Made by a program: the position numbers and the translations under genes. Positions 61,815-62,532 of a stretch of DNA of 64,000 nucleotides are shown piece by piece. The notes under the pieces were generated by a model, which was not told the DNA's origin, ran no database searches, and saw only the letters and a program-made list of their open reading frames with translations. The stretch is from Escherichia coli (GTDB lineage Bacteria; Pseudomonadota; Gammaproteobacteria; Enterobacterales; Enterobacteriaceae), in NCBI RefSeq assembly GCF_003018115.1, contig NZ_CP027457.1, one strand, 5' to 3'. Position 1 is the first letter of the stretch; the number at the start of each line of letters is the position of its first letter.

Positions 61815-62132
61815 TCAGGATATTACCTGGATCCCGTTTTTCTCGACAACTGAAAGAAGCCGAAGAGCTGCACCTCCCGGGCGTTTCACTCCTCGTTCCC
61901 AGTCTGATATCAGGTTTTTACTGACGTTGAGGTATCTGGCAAAAACAGGTTGAGACAGATGCTCTCGTTCTCGCAGTGCACGGATCCTTTCTGGAGACAT
62001 TACCGGCGCAGGCTGAAGACAAGTTTCATCGAATTCGCGCATAGTTTGTTTTGTGATTGCACCGATATCATGGAGTGACTCCATCATTTCATGTACAGAT
62101 GCAAGTGCATCACTGCGGTAATTTTTACTCAT
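61815..62132 (-). CDS. HTH (XRE-type) antitoxin, HigA-like
   Basis: 105-aa ORF downstream of and overlapping (8 nt) the toxin gene; HTH LSQPVFARYLNVSKNLISDWERG. Confidence 0.75.
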   Translation of the reverse strand: MSKNYRSDALASVHEMMESLHDIGAITKQTMREFDETCLQPAPVMSPERIRALREREHLSQPVFARYLNVSKNLISDWERGVKRPGGAALRLLSVVEKNGIQVIS

Positions 62133-62511
62133 TGGGTACCTCCGTGAACTGGCCTTGTTGAATCAATTGTGCCAGCTGTTCATCAGTAAGATTGAGGACA
62201 TGGGGAGCGGCTTTTCGAAAAGCATTTTCCTCTATAGCAGTGATATTCTCTCGTTCATTCTTTGCGTATGCGTAGATGAAAAAGGCTTTTTCTGCAACGC
62301 GGTAAAAAATTATTGTCCGGTAACCGCCTGATTTTCCGCCACCACTTCGGGCTAATCTTTGTTTAATGACACCACTACCCAAATTTGCGGATATGATCCC
62401 CCTTATCGGCCTGCTCCACGATTTTGCGTAGCGATTTATCGGAAATCCGATGTTTTCGGGCGAAACGTTCAAACCAGGCGTTTTTGAAAATTCGCATACC
62501 TGCCTCTGCAT
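62125..62511 (-). CDS. RelE/ParE-superfamily toxin, HigB-like (Gp49/DUF891-type)
   Basis: ORF 62125..62523 (start probably the ATG at 62511); GGGKSGGYRTIIFY...FFIYAYAKNERENI motif pattern; toxin-first order. Confidence 0.7.
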   Translation of the reverse strand: MQRQVCEFSKTPGLNVSPENIGFPINRYAKSWSRPIRGIISANLGSGVIKQRLARSGGGKSGGYRTIIFYRVAEKAFFIYAYAKNERENITAIEENAFRKAAPHVLNLTDEQLAQLIQQGQFTEVPNE

Positions 62512-62517
62512 TTTATA

Positions 62518-62532
62518 TAACACATAGTGTTA
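62518..62532. promoter_or_regulatory. palindromic operator candidate TAACAC-ATA-GTGTTA upstream of the HigB-like gene
   Basis: perfect 6-bp inverted repeat with 3-bp spacer next to the toxin start. Confidence 0.45.

What the first reader, a model, noticed from the sequence alone, without database searches (positions are those of the whole stretch)
61815..62532. HigB/HigA-like type II toxin–antitoxin pair adjacent to hok
Toxin-first gene order with 8-nt overlap; the 5' gene has the GGxRxI…YAKNE pattern of Gp49/HigB-type RelE-superfamily toxins and the 3' gene is a small XRE-HTH protein. A perfect palindrome TAACAC-ATA-GTGTTA sits at the toxin 5' end, unusually close to the candidate start codons, so the true start, RBS and operator arrangement are unclear (possibly leaderless or misassigned start).
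Basis: partly seen in the sequence, partly recalled or inferred. Interest (0 to 1): 0.55.

Follow-up and report, generated by a model that had tools for sequence, protein, structure and literature searches.

The report
Prophage HigBA2-type toxin–antitoxin, toxin frameshifted

Summary
The pair is real and lies on the minus strand: toxin first, an 8-nt overlap, an XRE-HTH antitoxin (61815–62132), hokD/sok next door and the palindrome at 62518–62532. The toxin is not one ORF. Its conserved start is the ATG at 62497, with a GAGG ribosome-binding site. An extra G in a G-run (62398–62402, G5 versus G4 in intact alleles) shifts the frame after codon 33, and translation stops at 62375–62377. The repaired protein matches Pfam PF06296 end to end (E 1.5e-47). 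This is the family of V. cholerae HigB2, not Gp49/DUF891. The nearest solved structures for both genes are HigB-2 and HigA-2. The palindrome extends to 19 bp (TGTAACAC-TAT-GTGTTATA), lies 19–37 nt upstream of the true ATG and marks the exact upstream edge of a 754-bp cassette (61781–62534). Its geometry matches the footprinted VcHigA2 operator. The G5 allele occurs in at least 52 of 168 complete E. coli genomes that carry this allele class. Diverged copies carry other independent toxin lesions, and the antitoxin is intact in all 18 copies retrieved in full. Verdict: a known kind of system holding a toxin pseudogene and a retained antitoxin; low interest.

The parts
61781..62534 (-). Whole TA cassette (operator to terminator hairpin), the unit shared with diverged copies that have unrelated flanks
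   Evidence: Alignments to the 78-84% identical copies cover query 87-840 of window:61780-62620(-), i.e. 62534 down to 61781. The multiple alignment shows homology starting at the palindrome.
62516..62534 (-). 19-bp imperfect palindrome TGTAACAC-TAT-GTGTTATA (perfect core 62518-62532); proposed antitoxin operator
   Evidence: Conserved as TGTAAYAC-TAT-GTGTTAYA in six of the seven diverged copies that keep the 5' end, and as TGTCACAC-TAT-GTATTACA in SLK172, while the sequence upstream is unrelated. Same total length and outer TGTA...TAYA bases as the footprinted V. cholerae HigA2 operator TGTACGC-N5-GCGTACA (PMC11006873). Binding itself is inferred.
62514..62522 (-). Candidate extended -10 (TG-T-TATATA) overlapping the right arm of the palindrome; weak inference
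   Evidence: Read from the sequence. Not reported by the consensus scan, which requires T at position 6. No conserved -35. Needs 5'-RACE.
62495..62506 (-). Toxin ribosome-binding site GAGG (62503-62506) and true start codon ATG (62495-62497)
   Evidence: The ATG and the MRIFKNAWFE... N-terminus are conserved in all copies that keep the 5' end. Pfam model position 1 aligns to this Met.
62125..62497 (-). HigB2-type (PF06296) toxin gene, 373 nt, inactivated by a +1 frameshift (pseudogene)
   Evidence: The intact 372-nt allele encodes the 123-aa WP_001217944.1.
62398..62402 (-). G5 run (G4 in intact alleles): site of the +1 insertion, after codon 33
   Evidence: Pairwise alignment with strain 6883. 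Allele counts.
62375..62377 (-). Premature TAG stop reached in the ATG frame (40-aa product: 33 native + 7 out-of-frame residues)
61815..62132 (-). HigA2-type antitoxin, 105 aa: about 44-aa N-terminal extension plus a C-terminal XRE HTH; own GGAGG at 62139-62143
   Evidence: Pfam HTH_3 residues 50-94. Best PDB match is V. cholerae HigA-2, E 6.7e-8. PHROG 2104 full length, E 5e-43. dN/dS 0.01-0.14.
61781..61798 (.). GC-rich hairpin between the convergent antitoxin and hokD genes; terminator for hokD (+) and likely partial terminator for the TA operon
   Evidence: Terminator-like site on the + strand. RNA fold of the minus strand -15.5 kcal/mol, z -2.2. In ML35-type copies the hairpin is perfect and followed by TTTT on the TA strand.

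Best explanation
The locus is a HigB2/HigA2-type type II toxin-antitoxin cassette, carried as an accessory gene block on the opposite strand in the early-right region of a lambdoid prophage. It sits between the replication genes with the ORF6N antirepressor-like gene on one side and DUF968/RusA/Q on the other, convergent with hokD/sok.

In its intact form the operon encodes two proteins. The first is a 123-aa PF06296 RelE-fold toxin, which by homology to V. cholerae HigB2 is a ribosome-dependent mRNA endonuclease with catalytic residues R47, R60, Y77 and K79. The second is a 105-aa antitoxin. By homology its N-terminal segment neutralises the toxin, and its C-terminal XRE-HTH dimer represses the operon by binding the single 19-bp palindrome that overlaps the -10 region.

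In this window the toxin gene is a pseudogene. One extra G in a G4 run shifts the frame after codon 33, so normal translation gives a 40-residue peptide lacking every catalytic residue. The antitoxin gene keeps its own Shine-Dalgarno sequence and is intact. What remains is most likely an autorepressed, antitoxin-only module.

Shown here: gene anatomy, the frameshift, family assignment, allele frequencies, conservation of the start codon and palindrome, and purifying selection on both genes. Inferred: RNase activity, neutralisation, operator binding, promoter position, and expression of the antitoxin.
For: Frameshift: the three-frame translations and the alignment with strain 6883 differ by one G and one SNP.

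Family: PF06296 positions 1-120/120, E 1.5e-47, against only 31-120 for the 132-aa ORF. PDB best hits are HigB-2 (4e-4) and HigA-2 (6.7e-8). The VcHigB2 core scans to PF06296. Catalytic R51/R64/Y82/K84 (PMC5416850) align to R47/R60/Y77/K79.

Real allele, not an error: at least 52 complete genomes carry a 373-nt G5 copy (50 exact 69-mers), against 113 exact G4 copies. G5 sits on at least 6 SNP haplotypes.

Start and operator: the ATG and palindrome are conserved in alleles with 78-84% DNA identity and unrelated upstream flanks.

Selection: dN/dS 0.01-0.14 for the antitoxin and 0.035-0.058 for intact toxins.

Independent toxin lesions elsewhere, with the antitoxin intact: -1 A in an A-run (PhiR12_3, ML35, O104:H4), a second -1 (O104:H4, NMBU) and an IS66 truncation (NMBU). 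31 of 37 full-length copies of that allele class are out of frame.

Context: prophage genes; never on plasmids.
Against: Nothing was measured: no expression, toxicity or DNA-binding data. The consensus scan found no sigma-70 promoter at the palindrome, so the promoter-operator overlap rests on analogy with V. cholerae higBA2 and on a TGnTATATA motif. The antitoxin N-terminal 44 residues show no detectable sequence similarity to the VcHigA2 disordered region (the alignment starts at residue 45). The G5 copies show no second lesion in 52 genomes, and 3 of 5 derived substitutions are synonymous. The sequence data alone therefore cannot show relaxed selection on the broken toxin; the allele may simply be young.
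Confidence: 0.85

Rival explanations
1. The toxin is intact and functional as the 132-aa ORF starting at GTG 62523.1.
For: It is an uninterrupted ORF, and PGAP annotates it as a RelE/ParE family toxin in several genomes.
Against: Its first 39 residues match nothing, and the Pfam match starts at model position 31. The missing model positions 1-33 are encoded perfectly in another frame from a conserved ATG with a GAGG site. The GTG lies inside the palindrome with no Shine-Dalgarno sequence, probably upstream of or at the promoter -10. Intact alleles use the ATG. Other PGAP runs split the same sequence into 40-aa and 85-aa pieces.
Confidence: 0.03
2. The G-run is a recoding or phase-variation site. 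A +1 slip of tRNA-Gly on AAG-GGG-G, or slipped-strand reversion G5 to G4, still yields wild-type toxin at a low or switchable level, so the module is attenuated and not dead.
For: A +1 shift on GGG-G gives exactly the wild-type sequence ...ADKG-IISANLG.... None of the 52 G5 copies has a second lesion, and 3 of 5 derived substitutions are synonymous. Both alleles circulate, and one strain (ST130) holds both.
Against: Five bases is far shorter than known slippage or phase-variation tracts, and the next codon GAU is common with no stop or rare codon to pause the ribosome (established knowledge of +1 frameshifting, e.g. prfB). Diverged copies are inactivated at other sites and accumulate second lesions, which indicates plain decay. 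A 3:2 synonymous to non-synonymous ratio is not distinguishable from neutrality.
Confidence: 0.07
3. The extra G is a homopolymer sequencing or assembly error, and the toxin is really intact in this genome.
For: Single-base homopolymer errors are common in long-read assemblies.
Against: The identical G5 allele is present in at least 52 independent complete assemblies from many laboratories. It is linked to its own SNP haplotypes and to a distinct set of strains (non-O157 STEC with 4.8-5.1 Mb chromosomes, against O157/O26/O145/O103 for G4).
Confidence: 0.01

Closest known systems
Vibrio cholerae HigB2/HigA2 (higBA2, superintegron; PDB 5JA8/5JA9/5JAA/5J9I, 8A0X)
   Same: Same Pfam toxin family PF06296. 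Toxin-first order. All four catalytic residues are alignable (PMC5416850). The antitoxin has an N-terminal extension followed by a C-terminal XRE HTH of the same length class (105 vs 104 aa). A single 19-bp inverted repeat with outer TGTA...TACA lies just upstream of the toxin gene (PMC11006873).
   Different: Only distant in sequence (toxin E 4e-4, antitoxin E 6.7e-8, HTH part only). The base-contacting residues R68/E71/N72/R77 of VcHigA2 are N73/S76/D77/V82 here, and the inner operator bases differ (8-3-8 rather than 7-5-7). The cassette is carried by lambdoid prophages and not a superintegron. In this window the toxin is frameshifted.
Intact E. coli allele WP_001217944.1 / WP_000042395.1 (prophages of O157:H7, O26, O145, O103 and other strains)
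   Same: 99.5-99.8% identical DNA, identical antitoxin protein, same position next to hokD.
   Different: One G fewer (G4), giving an uninterrupted 123-aa toxin.
Gp49/HigB (Pfam PF05973, DUF891) and Proteus Rts1 HigB/HigA
   Same: RelE/ParE (BECR) superfamily, toxin-first order, HTH antitoxin.
   Different: No profile match to PF05973, PF05015 or PF09907 even at E<=10. Rts1 HigA lacks the disordered neutralising segment (PMC5416850).
relBE-hokD (relBEF) of the Qin prophage of E. coli K-12
   Same: A RelE-superfamily type II TA next to hokD in a lambdoid prophage (established knowledge).
   Different: There the order is antitoxin-first (relB-relE), the toxin is in PF05016, and the genes are co-directional with hokD. 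Here the order is toxin-first, the toxin is in PF06296, and the cassette is convergent with hokD.

Membership tests
PF06296 'RelE'/HigB2-type toxin | Full-length match to the family profile | tested here: met
   The repaired or intact-allele protein matches 1-120/120, E 1.5e-47, 161 bits. As encoded in the window, the match is split over two frames.
PF06296 'RelE'/HigB2-type toxin | Uninterrupted reading frame able to produce the protein | tested here: not met
   A +1 G at 62398-62402 gives a premature TAG at 62375-62377. The gene is therefore a pseudogene of the family and not a working member.
PF06296 'RelE'/HigB2-type toxin | RelE-like active-site residues (VcHigB2 R51, R64, Y82, K84) | tested here: met
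   The phmmer alignment to 5JA9 places R47, R60, Y77 and K79 at these positions (residues from PMC5416850). All are encoded downstream of the frameshift.
PF06296 'RelE'/HigB2-type toxin | Ribosome-dependent mRNA cleavage / toxicity | not testable with these tools
   Needs expression and in vitro translation assays.
HigA2-type antitoxin | C-terminal XRE-type HTH DNA-binding/dimerisation domain | tested here: met
   HTH_3 residues 50-94, E 1.4e-7. Aligns to HigA-2 residues 40-94, E 6.7e-8.
HigA2-type antitoxin | N-terminal (not C-terminal) toxin-neutralising segment of about 35-45 residues | tested here: inconclusive
   A 44-residue N-terminal extension precedes the HTH and is strongly conserved, but it has no detectable sequence similarity to the VcHigA2 disordered region. 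Disorder and binding were not tested.
HigBA2-type operon | Toxin gene upstream of the antitoxin, translationally overlapping | tested here: met
   8-nt overlap ATGAGTAA at 62125-62132.
HigBA2-type operon | Single inverted-repeat operator overlapping the promoter, bound by the antitoxin | tested here: inconclusive
   A conserved 19-bp palindrome sits at the cassette edge, 19-37 nt upstream of the ATG. The promoter is not identified by the scan and binding is not testable here.
   The only Pfam domain with E<=10 is PF06296.
hok/sok type I TA (neighbour) | Hok peptide ORF plus a sok/hok-mRNA RNA family match | tested here: met
   Rfam RF01794, 117 bits, 61388-61562. The hokD CDS is at 61558-61712.

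The most novel reading that the evidence does not exclude
The antitoxin-only cassettes may be selected and not decaying junk. A prophage that keeps the HigA2-type antitoxin but has lost the toxin would act as an 'anti-addiction' or immunity module, neutralising the identical HigB2-type toxin of co-resident or incoming prophages. The G4/G5 tract would then provide a simple heritable on/off difference between phage lineages. The evidence does not exclude this. Three or more independent toxin lesions have reached high frequency (at least 52 of 168, and 32 of 38, copies in two allele classes). The antitoxin protein is identical between broken and intact alleles. At least one strain carries both a G5 and a G4 copy.
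Probability: 0.15. Interest if true: 0.5.

Novelty: already known. Interest (0 to 1): 0.22.

Why it matters
There are three modest points.

(1) Annotation. RefSeq presents the broken gene as a 132-aa "toxin" or as two small "toxins", and never as a pseudogene. TA censuses and defence-system counts in Shiga-toxin-producing E. coli therefore over-count functional toxins.

(2) Structure of the cassette. The locus shows that a HigBA2-type cassette is bounded exactly by its operator and its terminator, and that it moves between TA-rich spots of lambdoid prophages (next to hokD, Doc or DUF551).

(3) Pattern of decay. The toxin has been lost repeatedly and independently while the antitoxin is retained in every copy examined. 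This asymmetry fits the expectation that losing a toxin is harmless while losing its antitoxin is not. It also gives a natural set of G4/G5 strain pairs for testing whether such prophage TA modules matter for prophage stability or phage defence.

Tried and rejected
- Plasmid collection: no match.
- Phage collection: only PhiR12_3 at 79.5%, which also has a frameshifted toxin.
- NCBIfam: no model for the toxin, and only sub-threshold HTH hits for the antitoxin.
- PADLOC: nothing for the toxin, generic HTH hits for the antitoxin.
- PHROGs: both proteins fall in families of 'unknown function'.
- Consensus promoter scan: no site at the palindrome. The only minus-strand hit (62642-62613) lies in sequence not shared with diverged copies, and the number of hits equals chance expectation, so it was not adopted.
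- Palindrome statistics alone: not significant. The near-match at 39074 lies inside a 306-aa ORF and is a chance match.
- Synonymous/non-synonymous test on G5 haplotypes: 3:2, uninformative.
- Split-toxin idea (40-aa N-fragment plus the 85-aa TTG-start C-fragment that PGAP annotates): no Shine-Dalgarno sequence at a usable distance from the TTG, and no evidence, so it was set aside.
- Literature search for the two RefSeq accessions and for an O157/prophage HigB study: no paper on this pair. The O157 cryptic-prophage TA paper (PMC8630535) was judged from its abstract and my own knowledge to concern a different system (paaR2-paaA2-parE2); I did not read it.
- Structure prediction and the large protein-database searches: not run, because the full-length Pfam match already settles family membership.

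Full report
**1. What is in the sequence**

Reading 61300-63000 and listing ORFs shows that the pair lies on the minus strand.
- The downstream gene (61815-62132) is a clean 105-aa ORF with a GGAGG 6 nt before its ATG.
- The GGYRTII...YAYAKNE motif and the perfect palindrome TAACAC-ATA-GTGTTA (62518-62532) are present.
- hokD (61558-61712) with its sok/hok RNA element (Rfam RF01794, 117 bits) is convergent with the pair. The two are separated by a GC-rich hairpin at 61781-61798.

**2. The toxin gene is frameshifted**

Two ORFs cover the toxin region. One is a 40-aa ATG ORF (62375-62497: MRIFKNAWFERFARKHRISDKSLRKIVEQADKG + 7 residues).

Translating the three frames shows that the conserved N-terminus and the conserved remainder lie in different frames. 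They meet at a G5 run (62398-62402).

A 99.8% identical copy in E. coli strain 6883 has G4 there and encodes an uninterrupted 123-aa protein, WP_001217944.1.

That repaired protein matches Pfam PF06296 over the whole model (1-120/120, E 1.5e-47). The 132-aa ORF matches only model positions 31-120, and its first 39 residues match nothing.

So the GTG inside the palindrome is not the start. The start is the ATG at 62497, preceded by GAGG at 62503-62506.

**3. The frameshift is a real allele**

Short allele-specific queries against 5,426 complete E. coli genomes found 50 exact G5 copies and 113 exact G4 copies. A query with the 373-nt toxin region listed 52 copies of 373 nt, and the eight remaining rows listed were 372-nt copies.
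- All copies are chromosomal and none is on a plasmid.
- G5 occurs on at least six SNP haplotypes.
- G5 is found in a different set of strains (non-O157 STEC such as O91, O178:H19, O104:H21, O22:H8, O113:H21) from G4 (O157:H7, O26, O145, O103, O111).
- An assembly artefact is therefore excluded.
- PGAP does not flag the gene as a pseudogene. It calls either the 132-aa ORF or a 40-aa plus an 85-aa piece.

**4. Family and likely mechanism**

The nearest solved structures are V. cholerae HigB-2 for the toxin (E 4e-4) and HigA-2 for the antitoxin (E 6.7e-8, HTH domain). The HigB-2 core itself scans to PF06296.

A 2025 survey lists PF06296 as the HigB2/'RelE' family, with toxin-first order and ribosome-dependent mRNA degradation, and lists gp49 (PF05973) as a separate family (PMC11980606). 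No PF05973 or HigB-family hit was obtained.

The residues shown by mutagenesis to be needed for VcHigB2 activity (R51, R64, Y82, K84; PMC5416850) align with R47, R60, Y77 and K79. All four are encoded downstream of the frameshift, so the 40-residue product of the G5 allele cannot be active.

The antitoxin has the HigA2 layout: an N-terminal extension of about 44 residues, then an XRE HTH. Sequence similarity is confined to the HTH, so the neutralising role of the N-terminus is inferred from architecture.

**5. Operator and cassette boundaries**

Diverged copies (78-84% identity; ML35, O104:H4, SLK172, 2013C-3033, HCP4S3_I4, phage PhiR12_3) align with the window from exactly 62534 to 61781. That is from the first base of TGTAACAC-TAT-GTGTTATA to the terminator hairpin. 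Upstream of the palindrome their sequences are unrelated.

The palindrome is kept as TGTAAYAC-TAT-GTGTTAYA in six of the seven diverged copies that keep the 5' end, and as TGTCACAC-TAT-GTATTACA in SLK172. The ATG is conserved in all seven.

A 6-3-6 palindrome is not rare by itself (24 in the window), so the evidence is this conservation.

In V. cholerae, HigA2 protects a single 19-bp inverted repeat, TGTACGC-N5-GCGTACA, lying between the -35 and over the -10 (PMC11006873). The E. coli element has the same length and the same outer TGTA...TA(C/T)A. Its inner bases differ, as do the base-contacting residues (N73/S76/D77/V82 instead of R68/E71/N72/R77).

A TG-T-TATATA motif (62514-62522) overlapping the right arm is a plausible extended -10. 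However, the consensus scan reports no promoter there, so the promoter position remains an inference.

**6. Evolution**

Both genes are under strong purifying selection between allele classes: antitoxin dN/dS 0.01-0.14, intact toxins 0.035-0.058.

The toxin is nevertheless broken repeatedly and in different ways:
- +1 G here;
- -1 A in an A-run at about codon 15 in PhiR12_3, ML35 and O104:H4;
- a further -1 in O104:H4 and NMBU-W12E19;
- an IS66-associated truncation in NMBU-W12E19.

In the HCP4S3_I4-like class, 31 of 37 full-length copies have spans of 371 or 370 nt, and one more is truncated. All ten SLK172-like copies are 372 nt.

Overall, roughly 84 of 216 carrier genomes (about 39%) have a disrupted toxin. 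The antitoxin is intact in all 18 copies retrieved in full.

This fits the expected asymmetry of TA decay: losing a toxin is harmless, while losing its antitoxin is not.

Within the G5 lineage there is no second lesion, and the five derived substitutions split 3 synonymous to 2 non-synonymous. This has no power to separate neutrality from continued selection.

**7. Rivals**
- *Intact 132-aa toxin.* Contradicted by the profile coverage, the conserved ATG and the absence of an SD.
- *+1 ribosomal slip on AAG-GGG-G.* It would restore the exact wild-type protein, so low-level leakiness or G4/G5 switching cannot be excluded. The tract is short, the next codon is common, and other lineages show plain decay. 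I give this about 7%.
- *Sequencing error.* Excluded (section 3).

**8. Context**

The cassette lies on the opposite strand within the early-right region of a lambdoid prophage (cI-like, Cro, YdaT, O, P-like, DUF1627, ORF6N, hokD | TA | small ORFs, DUF968, RusA, Q).

In other prophages the same cassette sits beside a Doc-family toxin or DUF551 instead of hokD. This points to a TA-rich insertion spot downstream of the ORF6N antirepressor-like gene.

**9. Verdict**

This is a known kind of system, already annotated generically in RefSeq, and I found no study of this particular pair in the held literature.

The useful corrections are these:
- the family is HigB2/PF06296, not Gp49;
- the strand is minus;
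- the true start is the ATG at 62497;
- the toxin in this window is a frameshifted pseudogene beside an intact antitoxin.

Interest is low (0.22). The most novel reading still open is that antitoxin-only cassettes are retained as immunity against intact copies on other prophages (about 15%).

Noticed in passing
window 60495-60679 (+) and 60734-61285 (+): Rfam hits to isrK (60495-60569, 51 bits) and C4 antisense RNA (60595-60679, 69 bits) lie directly upstream of an ORF6N-domain antirepressor-like gene. This looks like a P1 immI-type or isrK-type small-RNA control unit for an antirepressor.
   Followed up: no
window 62125-62523 (-) and the same locus in RefSeq genomes: PGAP never marks the G5 toxin as a pseudogene. 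It is annotated as a 132-aa GTG-start protein (WP_236940275.1, WP_231200891.1, WP_231364797.1) or as two proteins of 40 and 85 aa (WP_001365959.1 or WP_024200932.1, plus WP_024173694.1). The -1 alleles in ML35 and O104:H4 are likewise annotated as shortened 'toxins' of 112 and 68 aa.
   Followed up: yes
L004, L005, L008 (ML35, O104:H4, NMBU-W12E19) and L006: In diverged copies the same 754-bp cassette sits convergent with a Doc (death-on-curing) family toxin gene, or next to a DUF551 gene, instead of hokD. The position downstream of the ORF6N gene seems to be a swap site for toxin-antitoxin cargo in lambdoid prophages.
   Followed up: partly
NZ_CP043478.1 (strain ST130), about 2,006,700 and about 2,181,300-2,182,130: One chromosome carries both an intact G4 copy and a frameshifted G5 copy about 175 kb apart, presumably in two prophages. 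The two antitoxins were not compared in this strain; in most other retrieved copies of both alleles the antitoxin is the same protein, WP_000042395.1.
   Followed up: partly
window 61781-61798: The hairpin between hokD and the antitoxin gene has a T-run only on the hokD strand in this window. In ML35/O104:H4-type copies the stem is perfect and T-runs flank it on both strands. Here TA-operon transcripts may read antisense into the hokD 3' end.
   Followed up: partly
window 39074-39088 (+): This is the only other near-match (1 mismatch) to the palindrome pattern in the window. It lies inside a 306-aa ORF (38749-39669), is not in a promoter position, and was judged a chance match.
   Followed up: yes
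L002 8788-10001 (strain 6883): An IS1203 (IS3-family) insertion splits the DUF1627 gene of the otherwise collinear prophage in strain 6883. It is absent from the window's version.
   Followed up: no
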